The translations under genes were made by a program, and so were the position numbers. A DNA stretch of 64,000 nucleotides from Amoebophrya sp. A120. Taxonomy: Eukaryota > Protista > Dinoflagellata. The notes under the pieces are model-generated. The model searched no databases. It was not told the origin of the DNA and saw nothing but the letters and a program-made list of their open reading frames with translations. The stretch spans positions 68,799 through 132,798 of the forward strand of contig CAJINV010000007.1 of assembly GCA_905178155.1 (NCBI GenBank), in the 5' to 3' direction. Numbering within the stretch: the stretch's first letter is position 1; each line of letters starts with the position of its first letter. Positions 185 to 57,099 of this stretch are shown in pieces.

Positions 185-1497
185 CTACAATTTACTCCTT
201 CGTAGTTTTACTTCGTCCGCTGCGTCGTTGGCTTTTGCAATCTCCTCTAACAAGCTCTTCACTGCGACGTCCTCTTCTGCACTACCGGGGGAAGAAGTTG
301 TAGATATTTTTGCCTTCAACACCCCAAGCAGGTTCGCACTAGAGGCCGCAGAACTGCTCGGCCCGATAATGATCAGCTTCGTTTTGACGCCACCCGCGGA
401 GGTCATCGCGTTCTCCACTTTTTCGTCGAACGCCTTCTTCGGATCCCTCGTGGTCTGCACCTTCTGCTGTTCGAGGAAGTTGTACAGCGGAAAAGCTACA
501 AAAGGATCAAGGGACACCTGGATGTTGCTAAAATTATTCCTTAAAACCTGCAGCGCCATCCGCAACAGAAGTTCATCCGCGATCTTCGCATTGGCGTGCG
601 GGGCATTTGTATCGCAAGAAAAAACTGTTTCACTGTAAACTTGTCATGCAGAGAATGGAACACAGAACAATTTGTCTTGCTACACCTGCAAGGCATTGGA
701 TTTTTAAGCGTGGTTTCCCTTGGGAAGCACGCATGGTAAATTTCCCCTGTCATGTGTAGCAAACTTGTGATGCGGATCCTGCAAAACCATCACAGTGAAA
801 CAGTTTTTTCGTGGGATAGTTTGAACCTTCGGTTTTCTCTACGCGAAGAAGAAGGCGGTAGTTTTTATAACCTGCTCAGCTGTTACAATCTCAAACGTTA
901 CAATAGAATATGGAAATCTGTGATGCAAGAGTGCATGTTCTAGCCAACTCTCATAGGATTGCGCATGACAAGTTCCGGCGTCCCAAACTGAACTACAATC
1001 TGGCGAAATTTGTATTGCAGAGAGAGAAACCCTCTGCGAGTCTGTCATGCTCATCATGCAACACAAGTCTCAAATTCTATTGTAACGTTTGAAATTGTAT
1101 CACCTGAGCGGGTTATAGTTTTCCTCTACTTTGGGCAGGTGTTCGGGGGAGAACTTTTTCGCGATTTTCCGTAGATCTTTGTCCTTGTATGAATTGCAAA
1201 AGCATCGTACTAGTAGAAATGGCATGACAAATTTTCTCTGCATCACAAATGGAATTTGTAATGCTGATTGGCCTTGAGAAAGAGACTTGTAATGCATAAA
1301 TGCAATTACTACGAGTACAATACTTTTGCACAGGATACCTTGATTTGCCCGGCAAAAACCTGGCTCCATTTGCTCGTTTTCATAGCGGCGGAAGTTGAGG
1401 ACGTCATTTTTGAAGAAAGCGCAGGATCTTCACTTGTGGCCATTCTAGAATTTTCCGAATAAATGAGGGACGACGAGCCCGTATTATAGTAGTTCAT
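185..1497 (-). CDS. Hypothetical protein, 4 exons, split by 3 introners (start uncertain)
   Basis: Removing 1188-1337, 866-1117 and 610-818 (each plus one 5-nt repeat) gives a continuous frame: ...WSQVFAGQIK-DKDLRKIAKKFSPEHLPKVEENY-RLLLRVEKTEGS-NAPHANAKIADELLLRMALQVLRNNF...RRSKL*. Confidence 0.7.
610..818. mobile_element. Introner (TIR intron), family TATCNCANGAAAAAACTG
   Basis: 27-bp TIR with 2 mismatches; flanks ATTTG/GTTTG; homologous to 34156-34374. Confidence 0.85.
866..1117. mobile_element. Introner, family TATAACCNGCTCAG
   Basis: ~40-bp TIR; DR GTTTT; homologous to the 42865-45406 element in opposite orientation. Confidence 0.9.
1188..1337. mobile_element. Introner, family A (TATNNNNTGCAAAAGTATCGTACT)
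   Basis: Imperfect TIR; DR CCTTG; frame restored on removal. Confidence 0.85.
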
Positions 1498-1666
1498 ACT
1501 TCTTTGCAACGCGGTAAAACTGGTGTACTGTGACAAATCACACAAACGATAATTTTTCTATTTGCTTTATTTGTGCGGCCGGAAAAACAGCATCTTACCA
1601 GCAACACTGTCTAGAAGAAAATGCGACTGTGCGTGGATGCTGCACAAGCTACACGTTTTTTCTCAA

Positions 1667-7422: not shown

Positions 7423-9664
7423 TTAGTTCCAGGGTCGCGACAGTTGTATCGTCAATTTCAGCGAGTACAACGACCCGTCGCCCTGTTCCTTTTTAACCTT
7501 CATTTCTAGGTGCGTGTGCGTTGTAAAGCCAACCGCTTCGGACATGTTGTTCACTGCAACATGGCCATGGGGTCCAATAACAAGCCTGCCGCGGCGGCGG
7601 CGGCGGAACGAAGCTGCAGCTTCCTGAGAAAGCCGCACGGGCCGCGTCCCAATGACGAGCACTGGCGTTTCAGATGTGCCAGACAAGACCCACCTACATG
7701 TGGCGTGTGGCGGACCTGCTGCCAGTGCGATCTCGAGGACCTTCAGAAATTCCGTGTAGAACGATTTGGAGTCCACAACATCCTGGAACCGCGGAGAATG
7801 CAGTTCTACGTAAGGCTCCAACAACTCTGCCAGCAGGAGCGACTCCTTATGAACTGCAAAAGTATCGTACTCGTATAAATGCATTACAAATTTCCTCAGC
7901 GTGAGAGATAAAATTTGTCATGCGGATTTACGTTAAGAAAAAGATTTGTAATGCAAGACTTGCATTTATACGAGTACGATACTTTTGCACAGGATACTCC
8001 TCCGGCGGCGGCGATGCTGGGCGGCGGGAAAGCAAAGCCGCAAAGGTTTCGTGTCAAATGTAAAAATGTCTGGGTCTGGAAGATTGATGCCAGGTTTGTC
8101 ATGCACATTTTGCATGACTCCTGATCGATCTGTGATATGCATGCCCTAGCATCACAGATTTTGTGAGGACTTCCTGATGCTTATACCGCATGACAAATGC
8201 TCTTTCCGTGTAGCAAAACTTGGACTCTCTTTGCTGCTCATGCAATACAGATTTTTTTAGAATCCAAAAGCAGCATGACAAGTTGCATTCTTCCAGACAT
8301 CCAGGGATTTTTACATTTGATATTTCGTTTGCTGCAGCAAGTTCGGGATGAAAAATCCAGCGCTTCAAACGCTTCTGCTATCCTGTGCAAAAGTAAATCG
8401 CACTCGTACTAATTGCAGTTATGCATTACAAATCTAGCTGTTAAGGTAAATCAGCATTACAAATTCAGGTTTGTAATGCTGAGCTAATTTGTATTGCGAT
8501 TTATACTAGTACGATACTTTTGCACAGGATATTCTGCTATCCTGTGCAAAAGTAAATCGCACTCGTATTTTCAATCGCAGCCATGCATGACAGATCTATA
8601 AGTTACTAAGGGAAATTCGCATTACATGTGGTTTAGCCTAGCGCTTAAGGCTCCGGGGAATAAAACCTTTTCAAGGCTCCGGGGAATAAAACCTTTTCCG
8701 TGCATATATTAAAAAAAAACTCAAACTGAAACAACACACGCCTGGGATTATGGAAGCATATATTTACATTGTGCTAATACTTTCTTGTAATTAGAGCGGG
8801 GGAACAAATGGCCCGTTAACTCGCACCCGCGAGTTAGCCGTCCGCGCGGCCGGCCGGACGCCGGTTAACTCGCGGCTAGAAGTGTTGACAAGTCGAAAGG
8901 TGGCGCAAATCTAAAAACCCGAAGTGCTCCAAAATTTGTAATGCAAATTTCATTCTTTCCGTCTCCCTTCGGAAAAATTTGTCATGCGATCTGTACTAGC
9001 GCGATGCTTTTGCAATGCGTATCTGCTTGACCGCGACAAATTCCTCGGCGAAGTTGACCGGTTTCGACGTGCCGGCAAGCAAATTCCAAAGGTTATCAAA
9101 TGCGAAAGTGTAAGTGTCTGGGTCTGGGAGATTCTGATACTTGTCACGCACGTTTTGCATGAGCCATGATGTCTGTGATGCATGCCGTAGCATCACAGAA
9201 TTTTCAAGGGGCTCTTGATGCCTATTTCGCATGACAAATGCCCTATCCGCGTAGCAAAAATTACATTCCCTTATTTGCTACTCATGAAATACAAATTTTT
9301 TTGGAATCCAAATGCAGCATCACAAGTTGCATTCTTCCAGACCCAGACATTTTTGCACTTGATACAGGTTCGATGGTAATGGAGAATTCACACACGTTGC
9401 TTTAAGCAGGTTCCGAAAATGGGCTGCGACTTTCCTCGTGTCCGCCCCCGGCGGGGGCGCGCTGCCGGCCGCAACTCTTTCCAGCACTGGTTCCGGAAGA
9501 TCTGCCAACGACATTTTTGGAGATGTTCCGTGATTCCCCGCGGCTCGGCAGCCAAGCGGCGCCATCACTCCCATCAGGGAAAAACCGACAAGAAACACCA
9601 TGGAACCAACAACACTCGTGGTGGAGGTCCGCACACGACGGGAGGCGTGCAGCAGCGTCAGCAT
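7423..9664 (-). CDS. Putative secreted protein with F-box-like motif, paralog 1
   Basis: N-terminal hydrophobic stretch, then SLADLPEPVLERVA. Spliced frame: ...LPSN-LWNLLAGTSKPVNFAEEFVAVKQ-KRLKRWIFHPELAAANE-TFAALLSRRPASPPPEE-SLLLAELLEPY...SRPWN*. Aligns with paralog 2. Confidence 0.8.
7848..7996. mobile_element. Introner family A
   Basis: TIR; DR CTCCT; site empty in paralog 2 (~16365). Confidence 0.9.
8052..8322. mobile_element. Introner family B (TATCAAATGYAAAAATGTCTGGGTCTGGAAG)
   Basis: TIR (left end reads TGT); DR TTTCG; site empty in paralog 2. Confidence 0.9.
8379..8531. mobile_element. Introner family A (first of tandem pair)
   Basis: TIR; DR TTCTGC. Confidence 0.85.
8538..9021. mobile_element. 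Introner family A, expanded by nested insertions
   Basis: DR TCTGC; orthologous to 16472-16643; contains a ~25-bp tandem duplication (~8647-8697) and a GAGCGGGG-type TIR end at 8794. Confidence 0.8.
9094..9364. mobile_element. Introner family B
   Basis: TIR; DR AAGGT/CAGGT. Confidence 0.88.
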
Positions 9665-9787
9665 TCTGTAGTTGCGGGCTACTTATTTCTTTGTTGCTAA
9701 AGAGAGGGTCAGGCTTTTGAAAGCTGTGTGTTAAGATGCGCTTAGTTGGCAAGGCTGGTGTCGTGGGGTGTTACACCTCCAGTGGAA

Positions 9788-12929: not shown

Positions 12930-12969
12930 ACTTGTCTGCTTCCTTGACCGATCATCATTTGGCTGACAA

Positions 12970-15575: not shown

Positions 15576-17603
15576 CTACGGCGCGCCATATGTCAACCAG
15601 GGGTCAAACACTGGAACTGGTCGTGGCGCCACCAGCTTTATCTCCAATGTCAGCAAGTACTCTTCGCCCTGCTCCTGTTGGGGTCCGCTCGGACTCGGGT
15701 TCTCCACCTCCACTTTTGCAGCCTGCATTCTGAGGTACGTTCCAGTCCGAAAGCCGGCATCGTCGGTGTAATCCAGAGGGGCTTCAAAGGCAAGGCCGAG
15801 AAAGTCGAAAGCTGCTAAAATTTCCTGAGAAAGACGCACGGGCTCCATCATATTAACCGCGATCCCATTTGGGCCCATCAAAAATCCAAATTCGGCGCGC
15901 GGCCCATCAGCTTCCTTCACCCCAAAGGCAAATCCAAATTCGGCGCGTGGCGGCACTGCTTGCAGCCCGGTCTCGAGGATCTTCAGAAGTTTCGGATAGG
16001 CACTGTATGGGGTTCTCAAACGTTACACTCTCAAATGTTAATACATGATTTGTCATGTAAGTTTGCCATGAGTACCTACATGATCAAGCTGCTTCGCATG
16101 ACAAGTTCGCGACTCGCAAAATAGGATTAGAATCTCAATCTGTGCCAACCCTGTAGTGCAAAAGGCGCAATCTTCCCCCTTTCGATTTTGGCACTCTTGC
16201 ATTACAAACTCACGCAACAGTTGAGAATGTAAACATTTGAGAACGCCATACACTGCGTTGAGCCCGTCGAGCTAGTCCACGGGGATCTTCACCAGCATAA
16301 TTTCCGTACCGATCATCATGCCACGTCGGAAGATAAGGTTGCAGCAACTCTGCCAGCAGGAGCGACTCCTCCGGCTTCGATTCTCGAGGGCGGGAAAGTA
16401 ACCCGGCAAAGGTTTTGTCTACCGCAGCGAGTTTGGGATGAAAAGGCCCCGCCCGCTCTGCACGCTTCTGCTATCCCAGGCAAAAGTTTTTATATCGCAC
16501 TCGTACTTCTATCTAGTAATCGCAGCCACGCATGACAGATCTATGGTCTATGGACCACAATCCGCCTATTATACAAATTCCATTCTTTCTTGTCATGCGA
16601 TTTAGATACTATACCAAGTGCGAAGATGCTTTTGCAATGGGTATCCGCTTGACCGCAGCAAAGGCTTCAACTAACTTGCGCAATTCTGTGCCCAATTCTT
16701 GCGCGCGATCCACATATTAAAGTGAAAACTGCCACCCACCCCTGAAATTGCAAAAATTTGCGATGCGAAGTTTCCAAATGAAAACTTTTTGTCATGCATG
16801 AAAGGAGTATGAATCTTTCTGATGCAGAGCCTAGGCGTGTATCGCATCGCTTGCATGACAAGCGCCGCTCTTGCTGGGGTCTTTTGCAATACAAATTTTT
16901 TCTATTCACGATTGGAAACCTGTAATGCTGATAGATGCAAGAGGGCGAGTGTTTCACTTGGTGGAAAGGCTTGCAATACAAATGCTCCCAAGTTCGGGGG
17001 TGGGGGCATTTTTCATTGTGATACCACATACGGCAAGTTCCATGGAGCATTCGTACACGTTGCACGAAGCAGGTTCCTATCAACTGCAAATATGTCTGGG
17101 TCTGGAAGGGTGTAAACTTGTCATGCAGGTTTCCCATGAGCATGACCTGACCCATGAGGTTTGGAATGCGGGACCTAGCACTACAGAGTCCGCGAGGTCT
17201 CTGTCATGCCTATCCTGCATGAGAAGCTCCCTCCCAACTTGGTCGAAAGTGGACAGGCAACCACAACACAGATTCATTTTTGCATGATTCGGATTTAGAA
17301 TGACAAGCCGCAATCTTCCAGACACAGACACTTTTGCATTTGATACTTCCGAAAATGGGCTGCGACTTTCCGCGTGTCCGCCCCCGGGGGCGGGGCGCTG
17401 CCGGCCGCAACTCTTTCTAGCACTGGTTCCGGAAGATCTGCCAACGACATTTTTGGAGACGTTCCGTGATTCTCCGCGGCTCGGCAGCCAAGCGGCGCCA
17501 TCATCCCCGTCACCGAAAAACCAACAAGAAACACCATGGAACCAACAACGCTCGTCGTGGGACTCAGCACACGACCACGGCAGGCGTGCAGCAACGTCGG
17601 CAT
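15576..17603 (-). CDS. Putative secreted protein with F-box-like motif, paralog 2
   Basis: Spliced frame: MPTLLHAC...SLADLPEPVLERVA...AAHFR-NLLRATCTNAPWNLPYV-DRAQELGTELRKLVEAFAAVK-xKRAERAGPFHPKL...RAQRS-AYPKLLKILE...TYGAP*. Confidence 0.82.
16006..16250. mobile_element. Introner family C (TATGGNGTTCTCAAA)
   Basis: TIR; DR CACTG. Confidence 0.9.
16472..16643. mobile_element. Introner family A, older copy shared with paralog 1
   Basis: Degenerate TIR; DR TCTGC/TCCGC. Confidence 0.8.
16715..17023. mobile_element. Introner, family D-like (CCCCACCCC subterminal)
   Basis: Imperfect ~35-bp TIR; DR CCACA. Confidence 0.82.
17078..17345. mobile_element. Introner family B
   Basis: TIR; DR GTTCC/CTTCC; empty site AGCAGGTTCCGAAAAT in paralog 1 (~9405-9420). 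Confidence 0.9.
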
Positions 17604-18767
17604 TCTGTTGCGGGCTACAACTTGATGTTTCTTTGCTGCCTCTATAATTATTTGCTGTTTCTGCTACTAGTGCAAGTTGCTCGATAGTTCTGTCACTGGT
17701 TCTTATATCCTGGCGTTGAGAGTTTTACTTTCTTTGCCAGGAGCACGATGAAGCTGCACTAGTACTAGATGAGCTGCCGCTGCGGCTTACAACTATTATT
17801 AATTTGTGTGTAGGAAAATAAAACAAGTAAAAAAATGGCACTGACGCCGCTCGCTTGTGCTCTTGATTCGTACTACGTAAAAGAAGTTCAGGCTTGGTGG
17901 AAGACAAAGATTAAGATAGTTGTTGGCGATAATGATATATGTACTGCAACTGTTGCTGTTCTTACGTTTCAACGTTATAACTCCTGCGAGGTACGTACGT
18001 GACAGAACACAACCAGGATGAAGATTTTGTTCTCACGCGACGTCACATTTTCGAAGTGGAGACTGTCTGCAGTCATGTGTTTACATTTTCATTGCCCGGA
18101 TCGTCGTGGTGGTCATCGATGGATTGTGTCCATGTCGTTCAAAAATACATAACCGATTTTCATGACGGATGGTGGATCTTTATCCTGAAAATTGTCTGTT
18201 TCTTTGGCCGATCATCATTGTCATTCGGCTGTGACAAGGATCACATATAGTTTTCGCTTATCACCTCCACGGGATGTTGATAGTAGAACTTTGCATTTGG
18301 AATTTTGTACTTGGTTGAGAGCTGGTGCCGGGCATCAAGGGATCGCTTCTTGATCCTTACGACCCCCGGCAAGCTGCCCGGCGGAAAAAACGAACAAGAA
18401 CACGACAAATATAAAAAAACTGGAAAGAAGATCATGCGCTTCGGCTACTTTTGTTCCTGTTTTTCCTTTTCGCTCCTTGTTCTGCTTCGAAAATATTAAA
18501 TCATGTTCATGTAGTTGTTTTCCTTTTGGACATCGAGAGCTGATGTTTTCGCTCCTACTTTGTTCAGAAGCATCATCACCGAGCAGCATACTGGCACTGA
18601 TGGAGGCTCGTTCTTTGTCGGAGGTCTTCGAAGCAGTTGATTCTACTTGCAGTGGGTAAGTTTTGCTTCAGTGACATTAATCATGCATCCTCACACGTGG
18701 AGTTTTAGCGTTTTCAATTTTTCAACTTGGCTTCTACTTCGCGTTGACCATAGGATCTCATATTTTA

Positions 18768-38300: not shown

Positions 38301-38547
38301 TAGCATGAACACCAGCAATACAAACCCCAGCACACGTAGAGCCTCTGCATGACAAATGTGTCGTGCGCCCAGTGTAGTACTGTTTCTACTTCCGAAATTT
38401 GTCATGCACACAATGCCACGAGACAGCGACTGGATTTGGCGTCTTGCATGACAAATGAGAGGGAAGGGGACGAGTTGTGCACTGTCATATGAGAAACGTT
38501 TCCTGCTGGTTAGCCGTGCCCGGCATGGAGGAAGCCGTGTCCGCCAT
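32365..38547 (-). CDS. Conserved-looking coiled-coil protein (possibly flagellar/basal-body associated) carrying 16 TIR elements and canonical introns
   Basis: Spliced: [26 protein letters not shown]...[112 protein letters not shown]...[52 protein letters not shown]...[21 protein letters not shown]...SA*. One frameshift near 36078; 35200-35410 and 33950-34097 unresolved. The function is a recollection-level inference. Confidence 0.8.
32418..33614. mobile_element. Introner family C expanded by a nested repeat array
   Basis: Family C ends; DR TGGGA/CGGGA; removal gives EKLFP-QRAGLP. Confidence 0.8.
32857..33492. repeat. ~133-bp tandem repeat, ~4.8 copies, each with an internal hairpin
   Basis: Unit starts near 32857, 32990, 33123, 33251, 33385; stem GGGCGGTATGGACTTTCTACGCC / GGCGTAGAAAGTCCATACCGCCC. 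Confidence 0.92.
33646..33906. mobile_element. Introner family E (TGCACAACTYCCC subterminal)
   Basis: Imperfect TIR; DR CCCGC/CCAGC; related to 36139, 38258, 45448. Confidence 0.75.
34156..34374. mobile_element. Introner (same family as 610-818)
   Basis: TIR; DR TCCAA. Confidence 0.88.
34407..34552. mobile_element. Introner family A
   Basis: TIR; DR TCGGC. Confidence 0.9.
34607..34872. mobile_element. Introner family C
   Basis: Imperfect TIR; DR eroded GGCAT/GACAC; frame restored. Confidence 0.78.
34909..35080. mobile_element. Introner (degenerate, 610-818-like)
   Basis: DR ATACG/ATAGG; joins EKIAY-VDAIRR. Confidence 0.72.
35420..35700. mobile_element. Introner family B
   Basis: TCTGGGTCTGG / CCAGACCCAGA ends; DR GCTCG. 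Confidence 0.85.
35732..36025. mobile_element. Introner family D
   Basis: TIR; DR CTTTC/ATTTC. Confidence 0.85.
36139..36389. mobile_element. Introner family E (degenerate)
   Basis: DR TGTGA/TGTGC; joins CKQH-KREVD. Confidence 0.75.
36448..36863 (-). other. Canonical GT-AG intron
   Basis: AAG|GTGAGG ... TTCTGTAG|GAG joins SLEK to ELEWF. Confidence 0.8.
36458..36673. mobile_element. TIR element (GTGTAAGTGT family) lying inside a canonical intron
   Basis: DR GAAGA/AAAGA; related to 41190-41408. Confidence 0.75.
36870..37171. mobile_element. Introner family D
   Basis: TIR; DR TTTTC. Confidence 0.88.
37209..37358. mobile_element. Introner family A
   Basis: TIR; DR GATCT/GGTCT. Confidence 0.88.
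37457..37674. mobile_element. Introner (TGCAAAAGTTGTATCGTGCT type)
   Basis: TIR; DR eroded TCCGT/TCTTT; joins HER-DFFLAY. Confidence 0.8.
37719..37928. mobile_element. Introner (GTGTTACAGTTACAC type)
   Basis: TIR; DR TAAGT. Confidence 0.88.
37960..38177. mobile_element. Introner family A-like (degenerate)
   Basis: DR TCGCT/TCTCT; joins SLAE-KLKSL. Confidence 0.78.
38258..38489. mobile_element. Introner family E
   Basis: TIR; DR TGAGG/TGAGA; joins ETFL-TSVKEK. Confidence 0.8.
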
Positions 38548-40929: not shown

Positions 40930-41091
40930 TTAGAAGTGACAACATCTTCTCCTGCAGACGGGCGCGGCAGAGCAGCTACTCATGTTCAGCTGCGAAACTT
41001 TTGTGGAAGTTCTAAGTACAGCTAGCGCAGTACTAGATGGCCTGCTCGTCGTGTAGTAGAAGTCCCATTTCGTACGACTAGTTTAATATCG

Positions 41092-42280
41092 CTACTTTCG
41101 AAAAAAACCCGCCGTCCAATCATGTTTTGGCTTTTTCAAGTTATTCCATTTCTCAGTGCTTATCGCAGGAAGGTGTCGTGATGTTGTAGTATCCAAGAAA
41201 AAAGTGTGTAAGTGTAACTTTGTAGGAAGATCAGCATCTTCACGAATTCGTTTTGCATTACAGGGAAAACCTGTCATGCGCAGCTAGTACGTGGAAACAC
41301 CTTCTATGAAAGCGGCCTATGACGCACCTCTAGCATGACAAGTGTAACTTAACAGTTTAGCATTTCCTGCATCACAGACTTACACTTACACAGTTTTTTC
41401 CTTGCATATGTAGAAAACTCCAAATCTTCTGCGTCATCACTTCGGCCTTGGGGGAGATTCCGGTGCCCCCGTGCCCGCCGTCGCGCTCCCGTTCAGAAGC
41501 GGCACCGTGCCCCCGCCTGGAAATCCGGCGGTGCTGGTTGAGAGGACGCTGTCCTTGGTTGCATTCACCAAGAGATTATGCATTGCAAAACTATGTAAAT
41601 CGCTATCGTACTACTGGGAATTGCCTTTGTACAAATTTTCTCAGAATAATATAACACAAATGGAATTTGTAAAAATGCTGATTCAGCTACAAAAGTCGAT
41701 TTGTCATGCGAGGTTGCGATTACTCCGAGTACGTTAATATACTTTTGCAGTGCATAGAGGTGCTGGTTTGTTTGGTTGGACGCAGAAAGCGGCTCCGGCG
41801 GGGATCGAATGCCGCTGGCTGTACTTATCAAATGTAAAAATGTCTGGGTCTGGAAGATTGCCAGGCTTTTCATGCACATTTTGCATGACTTCTGATGTCT
41901 GTGATGCATGCCCTAGCATCACAGATTTTGTGAGGGCTTCCCGATGCCTATACCGCATGACAAATGCTCTTTCCGTGTACCAAAACTTGGACTCCCTTTG
42001 CTGCTCATGCAATACAAATTTTTTTTAGAATCCAAAATCAGCATGACAAGTTGCATTCTTCCAGACCCAGACATTTTTTACAGTTGATAGCACTAGTACT
42101 CACACCATGGTACAGCTGCCCGTTCTGTAGTCTTCTCGACGCGGTGGTGGGGTCCTCTCCTGCTGCAACCGCGGACGAGGGAGATGAGAACATAAAGTCG
42201 TGCAGGGAGCGGAGAACTGTCTGCGCCACCGAACCCCCGGATCCACCTGTAGTGGGGTCGTGTGTTGAGGAATCCGACAT
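41092..42280 (-). CDS. Probable low-complexity coding exons (separate gene or tail of the 4-TM gene)
   Basis: MSDSSTHDP...VSTSA-ASGIRSPPE...NQHL-LVNATKDSV... is in frame after removing two elements; 3' end ambiguous. Confidence 0.4.
41190..41408. mobile_element. Introner-type TIR element (GTGTAAGTGTAA family)
   Basis: TIR; DR TGTAG. Confidence 0.85.
41577..41756. mobile_element. Introner family A-like
   Basis: TIR; DR GAGAT/GAGGT. Confidence 0.8.
41826..42089. mobile_element. Introner family B
   Basis: TIR; DR GTACT/GCACT; very similar to 8052-8322. Confidence 0.9.
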
Positions 42281-42489
42281 ACGTTGCTATTGCTATAATA
42301 GTACAACATCGCATTTATTAATTATAATTTCACCTTGCTTCTAAACTTTATTCAGAAGTGCTTGTCTTGTAGTTCATCTCAACTTCAACAGCAGGATGTT
42401 TGGACAAACAATAACAAGGGGTGCTGAGCTGCTACAACACGACGCTGCACCAGGTTTTTCTTCTACGACTGCGTCTAGCACGATTTATA

Positions 42490-45400
42490 TCATATGTGAA
42501 TGCTACCGTGCTCCTGCCGCCCATGGGTGGAACTTCCGCCATGCATGTTCTCCTGGTAGATCTCCCTAGTGACGGTGGTGTCGTACAGCCCGTGATGGTA
42601 CTCCCCGCGCTTGGTGTCTCCGCCAGGGTGCGCCGCGGCAGAGGTGCCGCTGCTCCCGCCGCCGCCGAAAAAGGTCGTGAAGGCGTTCGTTTTTGCCGCG
42701 TTCGCGAATTGCGTCGTTTGCTGGTGGTTTTCACGATCCATATAATCCTGGTCGAAGCTAATTGTGGCCGATTCGTCCAAGTCTCCCACTTTCCCCAACT
42801 GTTTCAACGATTCGATCTTCCCGTCCACCAGTGCGTTTTCGTTCTGCAGCGTCTCGATGCTGAATATGACCTACTCAAACGTTACAATCTCAAGCGTTAC
42901 AATAGAATCTGAGATTTGTCTTGCATGATTTTTTTTTTTTTTTTTGCCAGGGCTGGGGGGCAGACTCGAGGACAGTGGTCCTCTCCGCCATGGGCTACCA
43001 CACGATGCACATGCAAAAACTTATTGCCCCAGCCGGATCCGATGCGATCCACAACATATAAAAACACAACCGACATCATATAAAACAGCATATAAATCTT
43101 CAGAGTTCCGGATCTTCGTCGAGTTGTGCGTAGACCGCAGAGCGGACCTACGCAGAATATACCTTTCCCCGTCCACAGCCCTTGCTTTCTATCTTGCAGT
43201 ATGCAGTTTCCAAAAAAAGTAATAGATTTCTTCGCCAGTTTGTTGTTGGTTTAATAATATATTGATATTCTATTTACATTTTTCTCAGCTCTTACTTTTC
43301 AAATTTGTTTACAAATCATATCCAGATCATCTGCTTCTGGGAGCTGACGTAATTGAAAAGTAAGAGCTCCGCATGAAAGAACTGCAAACGTGAATATCAG
43401 CTTTTTCTCTTGAGCCCCCAACAAACTGCTTTACTCTATTACTTGCATTGCGTATTAAATTTTCCTTTCCTCCTGGATAACCGTATTCCACCGTCAGGTC
43501 GACCGTGCGCATGACTAAGACTAACAAGGATACTCAGCTTACATCTACTTATCTTTACTACAAGAAAAGAACTTACTGCAATTTTTATTGCTGTACCTCG
43601 CCTCCTTCTAATTAAGCTTCTTACTTTTTCTCGTTCCAGCCGGTCCGCTAGTACGGAACCACCGCAGCCATGACATCTTTATGCGCTGATGCCGCCGGAG
43701 CCCGTGCATGGTGCCAGACATGGGAAGGACTTGCACCATACCCACGGGAACAGCAGCATCAGCGGGTGGATATCACGTCAACGCTGATCCCGCACTGTTA
43801 TGTTCTTCGTTATTCCTTCCATCAGGGTAGCTGGGACAGGAACATCGACTAGATCATGAGCGCACTTTTGCCGTAGCCCGACGTTGTTGCGCCCTGGGAT
43901 CTCGCCTGGCATTTGTCTACTTTTTCTCCCATCGACATCGTCTCACCACTTGTTGACTAATTGACGGGCAGACCAGGCGGCGGCATGTTCATGATGACGG
44001 CCTGGGAGCGATCCGGCCGGCTGCTTATCGGCAACTCGCTGCTCCTAGCTTTATAGCTGCTTGGAGAGAAAGAGCGTTCATCTCTTATTTTTTTATAATA
44101 GCATGACAAATCTATTCGCAGCAAAATGTTGCAGAATCTCCCTGCGCATTGCATCCTTGGATTTTTGCTATGAATTGCTGCATCTGCGAACACACCTAGA
44201 GAGAAAGTTTTACTTTAGGGGTGCCTCTTTATCATCATTCCACCAGCAGGCTCTACGTCGCCATCAGCATTCATCTAAATTGGTTTTTGCTGTCAGCTCC
44301 ACATCGTTCACATTTCTTTTTCGTTTAGCACCCACCAGATGTCAGCTCCATTGCCGTTCTTTTTTTTTTTATTATCTTCGTTGAAGTTATTTCATGAAAA
44401 AAAGACTAAGCTTTTCGTGATCTGACGCTGTGACTTCCCATGAATCTCCTCCTGTTTCGGTTTCCCCCACCTTGTTCTGCAGCTTGTTCTGCGCCCTCGT
44501 TTTGGTCCGCTTGTTCTTCGTCATCTTGCCCATCACGCTCAGCACCGTCTTCCCCCTCCGCCCGTTGCGCATGGACTGGCACCGCGTTGAAGAAGTTGTT
44601 GATGTCGAGCGCCAATATGTGATTATTTGCGCCGTGTCTGGGGCGTTCTTGGGGTTCTTCTTGTCCTAGCACCCGGCGGATGAGTTGCAGTATTTCCGGT
44701 CCCATCAGTCCTTGTCTTACTCCCATCGGTACTGTAACCGCAATATCATCCCCAAATTGTGCAACAGCTATCTCTTCTTGTGCTGCTTCGTCATTATTTT
44801 CTCGTGCCATTTTTTCCTTTCCTAGCACGCATGACAAATTCATAAAAAATTTCTTCAGCCCCGCTCTGGGGTTGGTCGGGGCAGGGGGTTCAGAAGGGGT
44901 CCTGTCTGTCAGTGCATATCTCCATTCCGTGCATCATGTCACAAAGAAGACATCCGGGTATACAGGTATTCTTGCTCGTAGCAGAAAGGAAACCTTGATC
45001 AAGCTTCAGAGGTAAATAAACACCGGTCAGCACAAGAAGTAAAGGGAAGATCTATGGAGCAGATCCTTTTGGCAGAGGAACTGCGGAACGGGGGGAGGCC
45101 GCAACAAAAGGGGGAAAGAAGGATCCTATATAGGCACAAAACAAAAGACAAAAAGATCACAAAATGCCTTTTCATGATGAACATGACAGACTCGGACAAA
45201 AAGATTTGTCTTGCATGATGAACATGACAGACTCGGAGAGCATTCCACTTTCTGCAATACAAATTTCGCCAGATTGTAGTGCGGATTGGGACTCCAGAAC
45301 TTGTCATGCGCAATACTATGAGAGGTGGCTAGATCATGCCCTTTTGCATCACAGATTTCCATATTCTATTGTAACGTTTGAGATTGTAACACCTGAGCGG

Positions 45401-47007
45401 GTTATACTGAATCCCTTCAGTTTCGACTTCATGGAGCGCTCGAGGAGTATGAGACTACACAACTCCCTCTCCCCCTCATTTGTAATGCAAAATACCAAAT
45501 CCACCCTTTGCCCCTTGGCACTTTTTGCATGACAAATTCTGGAACCTCAAACAGCACTACAATCTTCCTGGGCGAAGTTGTCATGCAAGACCTGCATTGT
45601 TGCCGACGCTTGTATTGCTGTTTATGCCCGACAAATGAGGGGGGCAGTTGTGCACCCTCATAAGTAGAAAGACAAAGGCAAAAATCCCCGCAAAAATCAG
45701 CATACAGGATAGATGCACGTAGAACCGACTCGGGAAAACCCAGGTCAGCAGGATACTGGAGAAGAAATACAGCAAGATGGCCTATCCTGAGTAAAAGCGT
45801 CCCCATACCAGGGTAAAGATGGGAAATCTGCTAGACAAATCAGCCACCTTTGGTTGTTTCGCACGACAAGTTCATCCTCGTAGAAGTGTCATCCTGTTTA
45901 GCTAGTTCAGCAGCATCACAGGTCTATCATATCATGCTGTTTCTAGCATCACAAATTATCCCAAAACACGACTAGAAAAAGCCTCTCATGGGGCTTCGCA
46001 TGAGAAACTTTTTTGGCATGCAGATTTGCATGACAACTCTGGGGTGGGGATGTTTTTACTTAGAATATCGCCAGCTTAAACATCAAGTAGACGGACTCTT
46101 GCTCTTTCTTCAAAAAGTCCACTGCCCGGTGAAAGCTGGCAATTCCGTCGGGACCCCGCAGCGCCAGTCCCGGGCCCCACATCGCGAGAAAGACCGTGCA
46201 GTATTGTCTGAAATTTATCAACCATGATGTGATCCCCATTCCCTTTTTGCATGACAAACACAGAATCATTTACATTTTCGTACATGTTTATTTGCATGAC
46301 AAATTGGATGGGGCGGAAGATGGTGACTTTATTTGAGGGAATACCCATGTCACGGTGCACACGGAAGCGCCAAAGGCGCCGGACGTGAGCGAGAGGTATG
46401 CAATACAAATTTCCCGTACATGTACAAGATGCATCACAAATTTCGCCAATTTGAAGCGTAAAACTTGTCATGCTAGACTAGGATCGAAGCCAATTTTTGT
46501 CATGCAGAGACCGCATGTGTACGTGTACGGGAAATTGCCTGTGGATAAGAGGTAAACCGAAGACACGAGGTAGGAGGTTTCGTAGGGTATCGGTGTCGTC
46601 AGTTGGTTGAAAAGGTATCAAATGCAAAAATGTCTGGGTCTGGAAACTTGTGATGCTGGTTGAGAAAAACGAGAAAACCTCAATCGACTGCCAAGCATGA
46701 CAAGTTTTGGAGTTGCTACAGTCTTGTCTATTCTGCATGGCAAACTGGGCGTCTACATGAGAGAAAAGTGGGGGGTTTGGGTCACGCGCATTACAGACTT
46801 AGGAGTCATGCCAGCCAAGCATGACAAACCTTTCATCTTTCCAGACCCAGACATATTTGCAATGCATAAGAGGAACCCACCGACAATGGTCGACGCGCCG
46901 CACCAGAGCCAATAATTCGCGACGTAGTAATCTAGTTCCAACTGCCGCAGTTCGGCTTGGCGGATTGACACATCCGCCACGACCTCGTTCTTGTAGGCTT
47001 GAAGCAT
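42490..47007 (-). CDS. Four-TM membrane protein, Orai/CRAC-channel-like fold suspected
   Basis: MLQAYKNEVVADVSIRQAELRQLELDYYVANYWLWCGASTIVGGFL-FNQLTTP...VSSVYL-SLTSGAFGASVCTVTW-xVFLAMWGPGLALRGPDGIASFHRAVDFLKKEQESVYLMFKLAI-LLYFFSSILLTWV...IFAFVFLL-ERSMKSKLKGFS-IETLQNEN...; four hydrophobic segments. The family assignment is inference. Confidence 0.7.
42929..45201 (-). mobile_element. Poly(A)-tailed retro-insertion
   Basis: T17 at 42929-42945; duplication AGATTTGTCTTGCATGA at 42912-42928 and 45202-45218. Confidence 0.75.
44406..44810 (-). CDS. Short ORF (134 aa) with reverse-transcriptase-like motifs in reversed order
   Basis: AVAQFGDDIAV, then MGVRQGLMGPEIL, then HILALDINNFFNAV. Confidence 0.45.
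   Translation of the reverse strand: MARENNDEAAQEEIAVAQFGDDIAVTVPMGVRQGLMGPEILQLIRRVLGQEEPQERPRHGANNHILALDINNFFNAVPVHAQRAEGEDGAERDGQDDEEQADQNEGAEQAAEQGGGNRNRRRFMGSHSVRSRKA
45448..45662. mobile_element. Introner family E
   Basis: TIR; DR AGGAG/AGTAG. Confidence 0.82.
45783..46067. mobile_element. Introner family D
   Basis: TIR; DR TGGCC/TCGCC; reverse orientation of 35732-36025. Confidence 0.85.
46202..46343. mobile_element. Degenerate introner
   Basis: TATT...AATA weak TIR, two GCATGACAA motifs, DR lost; needed to join two TM exons. Confidence 0.5.
46397..46547. mobile_element. Introner (AATTTCCCGTACA type)
   Basis: TIR; DR AGAGG. Confidence 0.88.
46616..46868. mobile_element. Introner family B
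   Basis: TIR; DR AAAGG/AGAGG. Confidence 0.88.
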
Positions 47008-51430: not shown

Positions 51431-51499
51431 AGAGTTTTGCTAGCGCGGGAAGAAAACCCGCAAAACTGAAGAGAGATCAGCTGCCTTGCGATTCTTGAC

Positions 51500-52720: not shown

Positions 52721-53004
52721 TGCGGCACAACAGCAGAAGCAGTGTTTTTCTCAGTTGCTACCGGAAACGACGGACCGCGCGCCGTCGCGGCAGGTGAACT
52801 CTGTGAAAAATGCTCCTTCTAGCGCAAGTGTGCGATGTCACACCGAGCGGGCGAAGCTATTCGAATCTCGTCTGCTCCTATGTAGAAGAAGAAGTTCGAG
52901 TTCCTCAACATGATCAAGAAATAACACGATTCTGCTGTCCATTTATCGAACGACCGTGTCAATTAAACCTCGTTAAGTAAGTACTTACTCAGCGGATGCT
53001 GATT

Positions 53005-56000
53005 TCAAATCATCTCCCAATCGGAAAAATGATCGCCTTCCAGTACAGCAGCTACCTTGCTACTCTGCGGAACATATGGATTGCGAATATGTCTGGGTCT
53101 GGATCTGGAACGATGCCGGGTCTGGTGATGCGTGTCCAAGGAGAGACCCTGCAGTCTCTTCGAAAGGCTATTGACGGCCTCGTCGTCGACGAGTGCGCCG
53201 CTGGCACGACAATTTTCAGGACCACCAACATTCGCCGTATCACCGTGAGCCTGATGATCGCGCATCAGTCGGGTGTTGGTGTAGCTGCGATTCTGTCCCC
53301 GCTTTTTTGGCTCACCATTCATTTCCGTTTCAACCAGCCCGGATTCCTTTCCAGGCTGCAGGTATGCATTGCAAATATGTCCGGATGTCTGGAAGGATGC
53401 AAGGTTTGTCATGCTTGTCTGGCACAAACGCAGTTTTTCATGCGGCAGGCGCAACGCTAAGCTGCGCAAATATTTCTCATGCTTGGCTGTGCACCATTAC
53501 AGACGAGAATTCACTATTCACAACTCAGCATTACAAGTTTCGGTTTCCAGACCCAGACATATTTGCATTTGATAGAACAAGCTGAGCTGGAACAGGAAGA
53601 ACTCGATCGGCAAGCCCGTCTGCCACGGGGTTATTATGGAAGCGTCAGGATTGAAATCGTCAAAGTCGTAACTAATAGTTTGTGATGCATAAAATGCAAC
53701 CCACAAAATGCCTGTCTTGCAGAGTAGGCAAGGGAGGCAGGTTGTAAGCCTGTTGAGGGGTAGAAATAGAGCTGCTAAAGTAGCACGACAAAAGGCGTCT
53801 TCCTTACCCAAACAGCATTACAAACTGGATTTCGGCTCTACCCAAATTTGTCATGCGCCAGTTGAGAACTGGGTTACATCTGGCATCCATTTTATGCATG
53901 ACAAATCATTTCAACTTTGTCGATTTCAATCCTGACGCTTCCATAGTCTTGCGCGGCGAACTGTCCTGCTCGACGTTGCCTTTTTCGGCGGCGCGACTGA
54001 GAAGAAGTACTTGCGCGACCAGTGGCTTTTCGTTTATTTGTTGACGTGCGCAGCGCCTGCTGCTGCGCAGTAGACTCAATCCGTTCCACGTTCGACGCTT
54101 TGAGCATCTCGACAATGGATTGTCGTTGCCCATACTTCGACCGTTATCCTGTGCAAAAACGTCCCCAGCCTCAAGATGGGATGAAATCTACTTTAGACAA
54201 ATCAACCAGCTTTGGTCGTTTCGCAGTGGTTGTTTCGCATGTTGACAAGCTTTGTTCCTTCATAGTGTAAAACTCCTGTTCAGCTAGTTCAGCAGCGTCG
54301 CAGATATAGCATGTCACGCTGATTCTAGCATGACAAATTCGACGTCCAAAACACGACTAGAAAATGCTTCTCATGGGTTTCCGCGTGGGAAATTTTCTTT
54401 GGCATGCAGATTTGCATAAATGCAACTCTGGGAACCGTGGGGACGTTTTTGCTCAGGATAACCGCCACAGCGTACTCCCAAGGAAATCTACGGTAACGAG
54501 ATTGACTGCTCTGCCTTTCATCGGAGGCTTCTGCGCACCAGACGACGCGAGCATCAGTAGTTGCCACAGCTTTTCCCACCAAGCTTGTTCTTCAGGCACA
54601 GGACGGGCGCTAGAAGGAAAAGCTCCTGCTTGTTGATATAAATCCGCCGCCTTCACAAACTCGAAGTCAGCACCCACCTTCGCATGGTTGTCGGCGTAGA
54701 AGGCGCTGTGTGGTGCTGATTATTATCAAATGCAAAAATGTCTGGGTCTGGAAAAATGCCAGACTTGTCATGCAGATTTTACATGACCCATAACGCCTGT
54801 AATGGATAACCTGGCATCGCAGATTTTTAGCGGGCTTTCTGATGCCTATCCCGGATGAGAAATGCCATCTCCATGTAGCACAAACTGGACCCCTCTTGCT
54901 GGTCATGCAATACAGATTTTTTTAGAATGCAGAGACAGCATCACAAGTTGCAATCTTCCAGACCCAGACATATTTGCATTTGATACTGATGTTTTTTCAC
55001 CAGCGGACGACGACGAGGACATCAACGTCTTCGCGTGCTCGACTCTTCTTTCCCACCGCTCGCAGTTTTCTTCCAGAATCGTGTACACCTCATTTCGCGG
55101 AACTCCGGTAAATGTGAAGGAAGACCGGAAAAGCGGAGTACTAGTACCCACTTGCTTGGGGATGAAATTCTGAAACTTCTTCACTTGTCCGTCCATCACC
55201 TTTGACAGGTCCGTGGAACTCGAATACCCACCCACAAACTCGTCTTGAAACGAAAAAACGCTGTCTGCTAGTTGCGCGGTTTCTTCGGAACCTGTACCTA
55301 GCAGCCGCCCCCGCAGCTCTCGATAGGCTTTCTTTTTAGCCTCGGAACTACCCGCGTAGTAGGTCACCACAATCCTCGGTCCTCGGTTATTTCTTGGAAA
55401 TAGAGTCGTGCCGCGTTTGGAATCGTCGAAGATTGGTGCGGCCTTCACGACTTCGGCAACCGTCCACTCGGACAGAAGCGGCGTCTCCTCGGGGGGGTCG
55501 CAGAGAACGTTCTGGAAGGTGCCAAGAGGAGCCATCCTCCGTTTCGCTTTCCTCGTCGAGCAGGCGCTGCCTTGCATCATCAAGATGTTTTTTCTTGTTC
55601 AGGTCCATTATTTTCGGGCCCCGCGTCCTGCTTACCAACAAGTCTGCCAGAGCAGAAGCTTCCTCGTCCAGGGTGGTAGTTGATGTTCTATTTTTTATAA
55701 TTCTTGTGGGCGACTTCTGAAAAAACCGCCTCAGCAGCTTCTCCGCCGTGTCGACATTACTTCTCAGGTTCAAAAAAATCACTTGGTCTCGGCTTTCCTT
55801 CTCGAACCGTTTCTCGAAGCAGAACGCTGCAAGGTCCGCGAAAACAGCATCGGCCGAAACAGCTAGTTGACGCACACCGAAACCGAAATCCCCATGGTAC
55901 GCGCGGATAATTTCCTCGTTGGCGGCTCCGCTGGCTGCATCCAGAACGAATCTCAAGTCAAACCACCGCGCGCCAGCGCGGAGCTGATCAAGGATGGACA

Positions 56001-57099
56001 AACTCTGGGTCTCCCAGTTCTCCTCTACACGGAAAGTAGAGTGCACTTCTTCTTGACGTTGACTCTTCATCGACCGAGGGTCAGAAGCAGCTGCGACCCG
56101 GCGGCCCCGAGGTGGGACAAGATATGAAGATGTGGCAGCAGCCGCAGCCGCCCCGTGGTGAATCAGCCGCGCGCCGACCCTCCCTGCCCGGGAAATGTCA
56201 AACGTACCCCGAATACTGCCGCTGTCGTATCAAATGTAAAAATGTCTGGGTCTGGAAGAATGCAACTTGTGATGCTGCATTTGGATTCCTATTCCAAAAA
56301 AATCTGTATTGCATGAGTACCAAAGGGAATGCAATTTTTGCTACGCTGAGAAGGCATTTGTCATGCGGAATAGGCATCAAGAAGCCTTCAAAAGATCTGT
56401 ATTGCTAGGGTATGCATCACAGACATCATGGCTCATGCAAAACGTGCATGACAAACCTCGCACTCTTCCAGACCCAGACATTTTTACATTTGATATGTCG
56501 TGGGTGCCGACGAAAGTTAGGTCTTTCAGCTTCACTTTGTCTTGCAGATTCAAGTCGCGAATCTTTTGCAAGCCGGCTGGATCCAGAACGAGCAAATCTT
56601 CCGGGGTACTTTCAATAAGCTCCTGCTGCTCGGGTTGCTGGTTATTGGAATTTATTGGGATGCTAGTACCAGTACCACCTTGAAGATTTGCGGGGGACGA
56701 TACATCTCCTACAACAACTTCTTCGCTGTGGTCAACGATGTTCGTCCAGCCAACATCTTCAAAATCCAGATCTTTCTGTTTTGCAGCTGTAATGACGCTC
56801 CATTCAGGTAACTCCCCCTCTTCCTCCACCACCTCTTTCGCACGAGAAGGCCTTCGCTGCTCAGGACGCGCAGGTACTTTCTCTTTCTGCCCCCCACCAC
56901 CAGAGAAATAACCTGCAAAGCGGTTGAAGAGTGCAGATCCTCGCGCCGGCTGTCCGAGCTCCTGCAACGAAAGCGCCTCGACTTGATGGACAATCCCGTG
57001 CAGTGCCAGCTGCACGGAAAAAGAGGCCAGCAACATGCCCACAACCACTGGGGCAGCAGCACGGGGGCGCAGGACCAACTCGTGACACCTTCGCGTCAT
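53005..57099 (-). CDS. Secreted PI-PLC X-domain (PLC-like phosphodiesterase) protein with 5 introners
   Basis: Signal-like N-terminus; LKDLTFVGTHD-S, ETQSLSILDQLRAGARWFDLR, AYHG and VNLVTVDFL match PI-PLC X / PLCXD motifs; one frameshift between ~55490 and 55590 (homopolymers). Confidence 0.85.
53075..53574. mobile_element. Introner family B with duplicated left TIR (53075 and 53363) and cargo
   Basis: DR GAACA flanks the outer ends. Confidence 0.8.
53635..53945. mobile_element. Introner (TATGGAAGCGTCAGGATTGAAATCG type)
   Basis: 25-bp perfect TIR; DR eroded GTTAT/GTCTT; joins AAQD-PVADG. Confidence 0.88.
54145..54460. mobile_element. Introner family D
   Basis: TIR; DR ACCGT/ACCGC. Confidence 0.87.
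54721..54985. mobile_element. Introner family B (extra TAT at left end)
   Basis: TIR; DR CTGAT; joins EKTS-APHSAF. Confidence 0.9.
56228..56495. mobile_element. Introner family B
   Basis: ~31-bp perfect TIR; DR TGTCG; splits GTHD|S. Confidence 0.93.

What the first reader, a model, noticed from the sequence alone, without database searches (positions are those of the whole stretch)
866..56495. Introners sit in same-strand genes in either orientation
Seen: all host genes are on the - strand, yet homologous elements are mutually inverted: 866-1117 vs 42865-45406, 9094-9364 vs 56228-56495, and 35732-36025 vs 45783-46067. Spliceosomal introns are polar. Orientation independence implies symmetric signals (TIR stem, bidirectional 9-mer) or DNA-level removal.
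Basis: partly seen in the sequence, partly recalled or inferred. Interest (0 to 1): 0.72.

Follow-up and report, generated by a model that had tools for sequence, protein, structure and literature searches.

The report
Mobile introns spliced facing either way
In the marine parasite Amoebophrya, already-described small transposon copies sit inside genes facing either way, and copies facing both ways are cleanly missing from the same likely-RNA contigs although they lack normal GT-AG borders, likely because the splicing machinery reads only their mirror-image ends and cuts one base before and four bases after them.

Summary
The three pairs are inverted homologues (79-90% identical). The window is Amoebophrya sp. 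A120, whose TAT...ATA introners with 5-nt duplications were published in 2021 (PMC7789003). Of 63 elements, 45 form 9 families; 6 families occur both ways (10:4, 6:7). Probable-RNA contigs skip 14 of 14 elements in 15500-22620, each by element+5 nt, with inverted relatives inside one contig; none can be read GT-AG. The six named copies were not seen in RNA joints: four are skipped in published minus-strand gene models, two rest on homologues. Twelve imperfect duplications share one register, one base before and four after, which follows the transcript rather than the element. This favours RNA splicing that reads symmetric ends; DNA removal is unsupported and the 9-mer looks dispensable. Both-way introners are known in Polarella and Aureococcus, but with standard splice sites; I found no printed statement for Amoebophrya. 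The scan found this before on other DNA of this genome.

The parts
866..1117 (.). Introner, family 6, named pair 1; TAT..ATA ends, perfect 5-nt duplication
   Evidence: skipped (+5 nt) in published minus-strand protein P0001
42865..45406 (.). Introner, family 6, inverted relative to 866, carrying a 2.3-kb nested insert
   Evidence: skipped (+5 nt) in published protein P0003
42929..45218 (-). Nested insert with a T-run at one end, 17-nt direct repeat and a decayed reverse-transcriptase-like peptide; likely a non-LTR retroelement fragment
   Evidence: no Pfam hit for 44406-44933; the RT-like reading is recalled, not tested
9094..9364 (.). Introner, family 0 (+), named pair 2
   Evidence: ORF restored; paralogue has an empty site; no RNA joint seen
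56228..56495 (.). Introner, family 0 (-), named pair 2
35732..36025 (.). Introner, family 2 (+), named pair 3; register marker (offset 1-5)
   Evidence: skipped in P0004
45783..46067 (.). Introner, family 2 (-), named pair 3
   Evidence: skipped in P0003
16006..16250 (.). Introner, joint 16000>16251
   Evidence: run X4 only
16472..16643 (.). Introner, joint 16466>16644; register marker (0-2)
   Evidence: run X4 only
16715..17023 (.). Introner, joint 16709>17024
   Evidence: run X4 only
17078..17345 (.). Introner, family 0 (+), joint 17073>17347; register marker (1-5)
   Evidence: (X4 only)
19255..19478 (.). Introner, joint 19249>19479
   Evidence: 4 of 4 runs
19531..19792 (.). Introner, family 0 (-), joint 19526>19794; register marker (1-5)
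   Evidence: (4 of 4 runs)
19842..20009 (.). Introner, joint 19836>20010
   Evidence: 4 of 4 runs
20400..20544 (.). Introner, family 1 (+), joint 20394>20545
   Evidence: (4 of 4 runs)
20633..20884 (.). Introner, family 0 (-), joint 20627>20885
   Evidence: (4 of 4 runs)
20972..21124 (.). Introner, family 1 (-), joint 20966>21125
   Evidence: (4 of 4 runs)
21200..21375 (.). Degenerate introner without a sense-oriented 9-mer, joint 21194>21376
   Evidence: (4 of 4 runs)
21436..21687 (.). Introner, family 0 (+), inverted to 20633, joint 21430>21688
   Evidence: (4 of 4 runs)
21818..21970 (.). Introner, joint 21812>21971
   Evidence: 4 of 4 runs
22300..22455 (.). Introner, family 1 (-), inverted to 20400, joint 22294>22456
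   Evidence: (4 of 4 runs)
23992..24136 (.). Introner, family 1 (+); register marker (0-1) read from a contig piece edge
   Evidence: table 8 (piece ends at 23986)
24572..24826 (-). Canonical GT-AG intron, 255 nt, missing from the same contig as the introners
37209..37358 (.). Introner, family 1 (-); register marker (0-1)
46202..46343 (.). Introner with 3 of 5 duplication mismatches; register marker (exactly 1)
188..1497 (-). Host gene, published protein P0001 (228 aa), 3 introners
7426..9682 (-). Host gene (ORF 301 aa after excision), paralogue of 15579-17663, 5 introners
15579..17663 (-). Host gene (ORF 357 aa after excision), 4 introners
18771..25900 (-). Host gene (ORF 1245 aa after excision; 5' end approximate), 15 introners plus one GT-AG intron
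32368..38547 (-). Host gene, published protein P0004 (302 aa), 16 listed introners plus probable GT-AG introns
41440..47007 (-). Host gene, published protein P0003 (412 aa), 8 introners in the coding part
53008..57279 (-). Host region (two overlapping ORFs, 539 and 394 aa after excision), 5 introners

Best explanation
These are non-autonomous inverted-repeat transposon copies (Amoebophrya A120 introners) that sit in genes in both orientations and are missing from likely-RNA contigs either way, likely because they are removed from the pre-mRNA by machinery that reads only their mirror-image TAT...ATA ends and likely cuts one base before and four bases after the element. Shown: TAT..ATA ends, 5-nt duplications, both orientations, exact loss of element+5 nt, non-GT-AG borders. 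Inferred from 12 markers: intron = duplication base 5 + element + duplication bases 1-4, fixed to transcript direction. Either orientation then offers N-U-A-U at the 5' cut (U+2, A+3 as in a normal GUA donor) and a terminal stem ending 4 nt before the 3' cut, and the mRNA regains exactly the pre-insertion sequence. Inferred, untested: the catalyst is a relaxed major spliceosome (U2, U4, U5, U6 found and U1 not found in A120, PMC7789003 section 10; my odds about 0.55 against about 0.3 for a non-spliceosomal enzyme), with the 3' site measured from the stem rather than chosen by AG. The internal 9-mer is more likely a transposase-binding repeat than a splice signal.
For: 14 of 14 elements in 15500-22620 have joints of element+5 nt, 10 in 4 of 4 runs and 4 in 1 of 4. 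One contig per run skips 20633(-) with 21436(+) (interior score 142 opposite vs 26 same) and 20400(+) with 22300(-) (103 vs 29). The same contig lacks exactly the 255 nt of a minus-strand GT-AG intron. 0 of 14 joints can be slid to GT-AG or GC-AG. 24 of 28 elements tested are skipped with +5 nt in published proteins. 12 of 12 informative imperfect duplications allow offset 1 and no other offset is common to them (chance 1.9e-4 under independent uniform offsets, about 1e-3 allowing for six registers). Family 1 gives offset 0-1 in both orientations (23992 +, 37209 -), which a register tied to the element cannot do. Duplication identity is not needed: 46202 has 3 of 5 mismatches and fits offset 1 only. 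Terminal stems are predicted in 50 of 58 as found and 49 of 58 flipped (Wilcoxon p 0.90). End consensus T124/A124/T121 of 126 ends.
Against: Runs X1-X4 are only guessed to be RNA, are unstranded contigs, and come from 2 samples of 1 study. The published gene models are transcript-based (PMC7789003 section 25) and may not be independent of those runs. None of the six named copies was seen in an RNA joint. All hosts here are on the minus strand, so transcript polarity cannot be separated from chromosome polarity. Each register marker but one is one-sided, and 23992 comes from a piece edge, not a joint row. 4 of 28 gene-model tests matched at no offset (41190 outside the CDS; 35420, 36458, 36870 beside or inside other introns). 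In 8 of 58 elements the terminal stem is poorly predicted (under 8 expected pairs), including 21200, which is skipped in 4 of 4 runs, so the stem may not be strictly needed. Nothing here shows lariats, branch points or spliceosome involvement.
Confidence: 0.8

Rival explanations
1. Same RNA-level, end-defined removal, but by a non-spliceosomal or second machinery that cuts at fixed distances from the terminal stem, as proposed for Euglena nonconventional introns.
For: No GT-AG or GC-AG in 14 of 14 joints; 16 different 3' dinucleotides and AG in only 8 of 59; stem predicted both ways; U1 not found in A120. Euglena introns need paired motifs at asymmetric spacers, N3CDG..CH'GN5-6 (PMC12501133 passages), and are excised as circles (review PMC11282704 section 6).
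Against: The 5' end is N-U-A-U in nearly all copies (58 of 59 have T at +2), close to a normal donor. 4 of 7 single mismatches at the first intron base are G (not significant), and for 17078 the paralogue shows the G is derived. The register equals Polarella class 12 NNAG|G, which uses standard GC-AG-type sites. The spliceosome is nearly complete in A120.
Confidence: 0.3
2. The elements are excised from DNA (programmed or stage-specific) before transcription, so orientation is irrelevant.
For: Transposon-like ends and duplications; exact restoration of the empty site. The joint table with the DNA-like run X5 was cut (15 rows shown, 1897 more not shown), so a joined DNA form was not excluded there.
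Against: X5 contigs span whole elements in place (16088-16764; 24348-25527, which also keeps the GT-AG intron; 0 other letters), though X5 may be the assembly's own source. The contig that lacks the introners also lacks a GT-AG intron. The register is the same for both orientations of family 1, so it does not follow the element. X1-X4 hold many element-bearing contigs with foreign flanks (table 7).
Confidence: 0.04
3. The internal bidirectional 9-mer is the branch or splice signal that makes both orientations work.
For: 162 of 176 motif hits fall inside elements, which cover 18.4 of 63.2 kb; both strands in 54 of 58 with one mismatch; in family 0 a sense copy lies 36-51 nt from the 3' cut in 10 of 13 simple copies, both orientations included.
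Against: Distance to the 3' cut ranges 35-170 nt and differs by orientation in family 1 (71-78 nt in 5 of 6 forward copies; 96-115 nt in the 6 of 7 reverse copies that have one). 21200 has no sense copy and is skipped in 4 of 4 runs; 16006 and 20972 have only mismatched copies. Subterminal repeats on both strands are ordinary for inverted-repeat transposons (recalled).
Confidence: 0.15
4. Both orientations arise partly by inversion of the interior between the two terminal repeats rather than by random insertion, leaving the ends, and so splicing, untouched.
For: The outer 10-nt modules are not tied to the interior: 20972 and 22635 carry the two end types in the reverse order to 22300 and 20400, and the same end types occur in families 0 and 1.
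Against: Gene conversion between ends or different master copies would give the same pattern. This explains how orientations arise, not how copies are removed, and it is compatible with the best explanation.
Confidence: 0.2

Closest known systems
Amoebophrya sp. A120 introner elements (Farhat et al. 2021, PMC7789003; seen: abstract, sections 10, 11, 12, 16, 25, found passages, 8 supplement passages; figures not visible)
   Same: Same organism (100% protein matches P0001 and P0003, 95% for the exon query to P0004). Ends start TAT + 7 nt + AAA, 5-bp direct repeats, hairpin, non-canonical borders, multi-copy families, no transposase.
   Different: The text I saw says nothing on element orientation ('orientation' hits concern genes; 'strand' has 0 hits). 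It calls border positions variable or unknown, with repeats 1-5 nt from the splice sites. Both-way splicing and a single 1+4 register are additions; figures S19-S25 may show more than their legends.
Polarella glacialis introner-like classes 1, 2, 3, 6, 7, 8, 10 (both orientations) and class 12 (5-nt duplication, NNAG|G) (bioRxiv 2020.10.14.339549; seen: section 5 and passages)
   Same: Transposon-derived introns made in either orientation; class 12 has the identical register (last duplication base + first element base as donor, duplication bases 3-4 as acceptor).
   Different: There the sites are GT/GC/GA-AG, recruited from the duplication or element, and class 12 works in one orientation only. 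Here the same register runs both ways with any base at +1 and any 3' dinucleotide.
Aureococcus anophagefferens / Micromonas introners (Huff et al. 2016; paper not held, seen only as cited in PMC10228655 and the bioRxiv preprint)
   Same: Inverted-repeat DNA transposons that become introns in both orientations.
   Different: Canonical splice motifs, one carried by the element and one co-opted from the duplication.
Euglenid nonconventional introns (PMC12501133 passages; PMC11282704 section 6)
   Same: No GT-AG; paired ends at fixed, asymmetric distances from the cuts; probable MITE origin. The best analogy for how it works.
   Different: CAG/CTG motifs with 3 and 5-6 nt spacers and a purine starting exon 2; circular products; unrelated lineage. 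'Orientation' had 0 hits in that paper.
IS3EU/GingerRoot DNA transposons (PMC10045372 passages)
   Same: TA..TA termini with terminal inverted repeats.
   Different: Their duplications are usually 6 bp; here 5 bp, and no transposase is linked. A lead for the mobiliser only.

Membership tests
Amoebophrya A120 introner elements | Host is Amoebophrya A120 | tested here: met
   exon queries hit proteins labelled Amoebophrya sp. A120 at 100, 100 and 95%
Amoebophrya A120 introner elements | Terminal inverted repeats starting TAT, seven looser bases, then a run of A | tested here: met
   126 ends: T124 A124 T121; A at positions 11-14 in 95-111
Amoebophrya A120 introner elements | 3-5 nt direct repeats overlapping the borders | tested here: met
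   5-nt duplication perfect in 31, one mismatch in 23, two in 6, three or more in 3, of 63; elements were partly chosen by this feature
Amoebophrya A120 introner elements | Removed from transcripts with non-canonical borders | tested here: met
   14 of 14 joints in probable-RNA contigs, none GT-AG or GC-AG; 1 of 59 (1188) is GT-AG under the register
Amoebophrya A120 introner elements | Repeated, in families | tested here: met
   45 of 63 in 9 families; depth about 1e5 on elements vs 42-82 on unique contigs in run X5
Canonical-site introners (Aureococcus, Polarella type) | Intron creation in either orientation | tested here: met
Canonical-site introners (Aureococcus, Polarella type) | GT/GC/GA donor and AG acceptor recruited from element or duplication | tested here: not met
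Spliceosomal (U2-type) introns | GT-AG or GC-AG borders | tested here: not met
   0 of 14 joints; T at +2 in 58 of 59
Spliceosomal (U2-type) introns | Lariat and branch point, snRNP dependence | not testable with these tools
   only contigs covered the locus; raw reads of X9 and X10 did not
Euglenid-type nonconventional introns | Paired ends at fixed asymmetric distances from the cuts | tested here: met
   1 and 4 nt; stem predicted in 50 of 58
Euglenid-type nonconventional introns | N3CDG..CH'GN5-6|R signature | tested here: not met
   ends are N1-TAT..ATA-N4
Euglenid-type nonconventional introns | Excised as full-length circles | not testable with these tools
   no raw reads on the locus
Programmed DNA elimination (IES-like) | Joined form exists in DNA | tested here: inconclusive
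   X5 contigs keep elements, but the joint table was cut and X5 may be the assembly source
IS3EU/GingerRoot non-autonomous elements | TA..TA termini | tested here: met
   family feature
IS3EU/GingerRoot non-autonomous elements | Usually 6-bp duplication; cognate transposase | tested here: not met
   5 bp here; the integrase-like ORF 12011-13816 has no matching inverted repeats

The most novel reading that the evidence does not exclude
Amoebophrya A120 has a strand-symmetric intron code: a machinery, either a U1-less spliceosome or a separate enzyme, that needs no GT, no AG and no polar internal signal, and measures both cuts (1 and 4 nt) from the element's paired TAT...ATA ends. Any insertion of this transposon, in either direction and even with kilobases of nested cargo, would then be a seamless intron.
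Probability: 0.45. Interest if true: 0.75.

Novelty: new variant of a known kind. Interest (0 to 1): 0.5.

Why it matters
How A120's tens of thousands of non-canonical introns are spliced was left open in 2021 (PMC7789003 sections 16-17). If both orientations splice at one fixed 1+4 register, all necessary information lies in the symmetric ends plus the direction of transcription. That rules out a polar branch-and-acceptor code of the usual kind, gives an exact border rule for re-annotating the genome, explains why the element could flood coding exons at little cost, and defines simple minigene and lariat-versus-circle tests. The elements themselves, and both-way introners in other species, are already known, which caps the surprise.

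Tried and rejected
No whole genome is held, so genome-wide sense:antisense ratios could not be counted; within the window 10:4 (p 0.18) and 6:7 (p 1.0) do not depart from 1:1. No listed holder is on record as RNA. The first lay at 90% likeness was swamped by other copies in X5. My first idea, an intron of element+2 nt leaving 3 extra bases, was rejected: contigs lose element+5; reading frame alone cannot tell these apart. My early note that 22300 and 22635 are inverted was wrong: their interiors are co-oriented and only their ends are swapped. ORF length barely constrains the register. Pfam gave no hit for any host exon (20 queries) and nothing significant for P0001, P0003 or P0004; my recalled labels (Orai-like for P0003, PI-PLC-X-like for the 56228 host) are unconfirmed. 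My own model of the 32.2-38.7 kb gene failed to give one ORF; the published protein was used instead. No inverted repeats were found around the integrase-like ORF. Huff et al. 2016 is not held. Six paper searches found no statement on element orientation or a fixed register in Amoebophrya; the Current Biology version of Roy et al., theses and the figures of the 2021 supplement were not seen and could hold one.
Full report
Observation. Self-comparison of the window shows the three named pairs as inverted homologues: 90% over 205 nt, 85% over 260 nt and 79% over 297 nt. Because terminal inverted repeats alone could mimic this, I removed 25 nt from each end; opposite-orientation scores were still 265, 272 and 234 against 44, 21 and 25. 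The long member 42865-45406 is a short element with a 2.3-kb nested insert flanked by a 17-nt direct repeat.

What the elements are. I curated 63 elements by hand from two automatic scans. They begin TAT and end ATA (124, 124 and 121 of 126 ends match at positions 1-3) with an A-run at positions 11-14. A 5-nt duplication flanks them: perfect in 31, one mismatch in 23, two in 6, three or more in 3; the duplication was one of my selection criteria. This is the description of Amoebophrya A120 introner elements in Farhat et al. 2021 (PMC7789003), and three exon queries hit proteins labelled Amoebophrya sp. A120. By interior sequence, 45 of 63 fall in 9 families with no inconsistent orientation edge; 18 are singletons. 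Six of the 9 families occur both ways: 10:4, 6:7, 2:2, 2:1, 1:2 and 1:1; the other three are 2:0.

Host strand. Removing element+5 nt restores long minus-strand frames in 8 of 9 gene regions; removing 0, 4 or 6 extra bases does not, and removing 2 cannot be told from 5. Published proteins P0001, P0003 and P0004 map exon by exon to the minus strand and skip 24 of 28 elements tested, including named copies 866, 42865-45406, 45783 and 35732. The other four are explained by position: 41190 is past the stop codon, and 35420, 36458 and 36870 lie beside or inside other introns. Two homologues align on the minus strand on both sides of 56228 and continuously across the excised form. For 9094 the evidence is weaker: a restored 301-aa frame and a 78%-identical paralogue (237 of 302 aligned bases) with an empty site. 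The regions at 28-30.7 kb and 60.7-62.4 kb rest on reading frames alone.

RNA. Four runs guessed to be RNA hold 0.52 of the words of 18700-25800. At 99% likeness, all 14 elements in 15500-22620 show a joint that skips element+5 nt: ten in all four runs (two samples, one study) and four in X4 only. A single contig per run skips family 0 copies 19531(-), 20633(-) and 21436(+), and family 1 copies 20400(+), 20972(-) and 22300(-). These contigs behave as RNA: after four elements+5 are subtracted, the X3 contig lacks exactly 255 further bases, the length of a minus-strand GT-AG intron at 24572-24826 that opens a 1245-aa frame, and the intergenic bin 18118-18355 has no cover in any of the four runs. 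Sliding each joint over all equivalent positions never gives GT-AG or GC-AG; one can read AT-AC. None of the six named copies was seen in a joint: only 9094 lay inside a laid stretch, and its gene had almost no cover. Raw-read runs X9 and X10 did not cover exons, so the RNA strand was not measured.

Where the cut falls. When the two duplication copies differ, the product shows which base survives. Four contig markers (17078: 1-5; 19531: 1-5; 16472: 0-2; 23992: 0-1, the last from a piece edge) and eight gene-model markers (41826: 0-1; 46202: 1; 33646: 0-2; 35732: 1-5; 36139: 0-4; 37209: 0-1; 37457: 0-2; 37960: 0-2) share only offset 1. On the transcript the intron is duplication base 5 + element + duplication bases 1-4. 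The chance under independent uniform offsets is 1.9e-4, about 1e-3 allowing for six registers. Family 1 gives 0-1 in both orientations; a register tied to the element would need k and 5-k. Under this register 59 elements (54724, 46202, 60724 and 61692 dropped for unclear duplications) start AT 21, GT 16, CT 11, TT 10, AA 1 and end in 16 different dinucleotides, AG in 8; only 1188 is GT-AG. The gene models are transcript-based and may share data with the runs, and every host here is on the minus strand, so transcript polarity and chromosome polarity are not separated.

Mechanism. Either orientation presents N-U-A-U at the 5' cut and a terminal stem; folding predicts eight or more end pairs in 50 of 58 simple elements as found and 49 of 58 flipped. 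The duplication need not match (46202, three mismatches), so the 3' cut looks measured from the end of the element. I infer RNA splicing that reads the symmetric ends, most likely by a relaxed spliceosome: A120 has nearly all its proteins and U2, U4, U5 and U6, but U1 was not found; U+2 and A+3 match a normal donor; and the register equals Polarella class 12 NNAG|G. The main rival is an Euglena-like route that cuts at fixed distances from a stem. Nothing here decides between them. DNA removal is unlikely: DNA-like X5 contigs keep whole elements (with the caveats that X5 may be the assembly source and its joint table was cut), and the register ignores element orientation. The 9-mer is real and bidirectional (162 of 176 hits in elements; both strands in 32 of 58 exactly, 54 of 58 with one mismatch), but lies 35-170 nt from the 3' cut and is absent in sense from 21200, which is skipped in 4 of 4 runs. 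It is more likely a transposase-binding repeat, though in family 0 its position (36-51 nt in 10 of 13) leaves a branch role open.

Known and new. The elements are published members of the A120 introner set. Both-orientation intron creation is published for Polarella and, as cited, for Aureococcus, and a 2022 survey allowed for opposite-orientation copies in its method; in the cases I read, standard splice sites are recruited. In the text and supplement legends I could search, Farhat et al. do not mention element orientation and leave border positions open. Six searches found no later statement; figures, theses and subscription papers were not visible. Of PMC12130899, PMC9860276, PMC10228655, PMC12501133 and PMC10045372 I saw passages only; of PMC11282704 passages and section 6. 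This scan has reached the same reading, including the 1+4 cut, on other pieces of this genome (unreviewed notes, not independent support); I had noted the register before that look-up.

Verdict. Observation confirmed; interpretation partly supported. A known element with a property, orientation-blind splicing at a fixed register without GT-AG, that I did not find in print for it: new variant of a known kind, interest 0.5.

Noticed in passing
window 20972-21124, 22635-22787 vs 22300-22455, 20400-20544: The outer 10-nt end modules are shuffled relative to interior orientation and shared between families 0 and 1, hinting at interior inversion or conversion between ends.
   Followed up: partly
window 36864-36865 and 35409-35415: Under the register, exons of about 2 and 7 nt would separate introners 36870 and 35420 from adjacent GT donors in the P0004 gene, suggesting ordered removal (inferred from the published protein, approximate coordinates).
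   Followed up: partly
window 42929-45218: 2.3-kb insert with T-run, 17-nt duplication and decayed RT-like peptide nested in an introner; the whole 2547 nt is skipped in P0003.
   Followed up: partly
window 8538-9021, 29429-29985, 32418-33614, 53075-53574: Further enlarged or nested introners (484-1197 nt); 32418 holds a 133-nt tandem array and is skipped in P0004. 8379-8532 sits directly beside 8538, sharing the duplication.
   Followed up: no
window 33954-34096 (approximate): GT-AG intron flanked by a short direct repeat and carrying one 9-mer; possibly an old introner that became canonical.
   Followed up: no
window 12011-13816 (-): 601-aa ORF with a weak integrase-core match (E 2.5e-4, below cut-off); no matching inverted repeats found around it.
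   Followed up: partly
window 1667-3332 and 39293-40930: Two larger intergenic inverted-repeat elements (85-nt and 102-nt near-perfect arms); the first has TAT..ATA ends, the second encloses a 1.4-kb array of 50-nt units.
   Followed up: no
window 7426-9682 vs 15579-17663: Paralogous genes with different introner complements: one shared site (8538/16472), while the 9094 and 17078 sites are empty in the other copy; useful for dating insertions.
   Followed up: partly
window 9094, 17078, 19531, 32418: 4 of 7 single mismatches at the first intron base are G, creating GT donors; too few to call selection.
   Followed up: partly
window 55387-55598: Two minus-strand frames overlap here (539 and 394 aa after excision); an unmodelled intron or frameshift may join them.
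   Followed up: no
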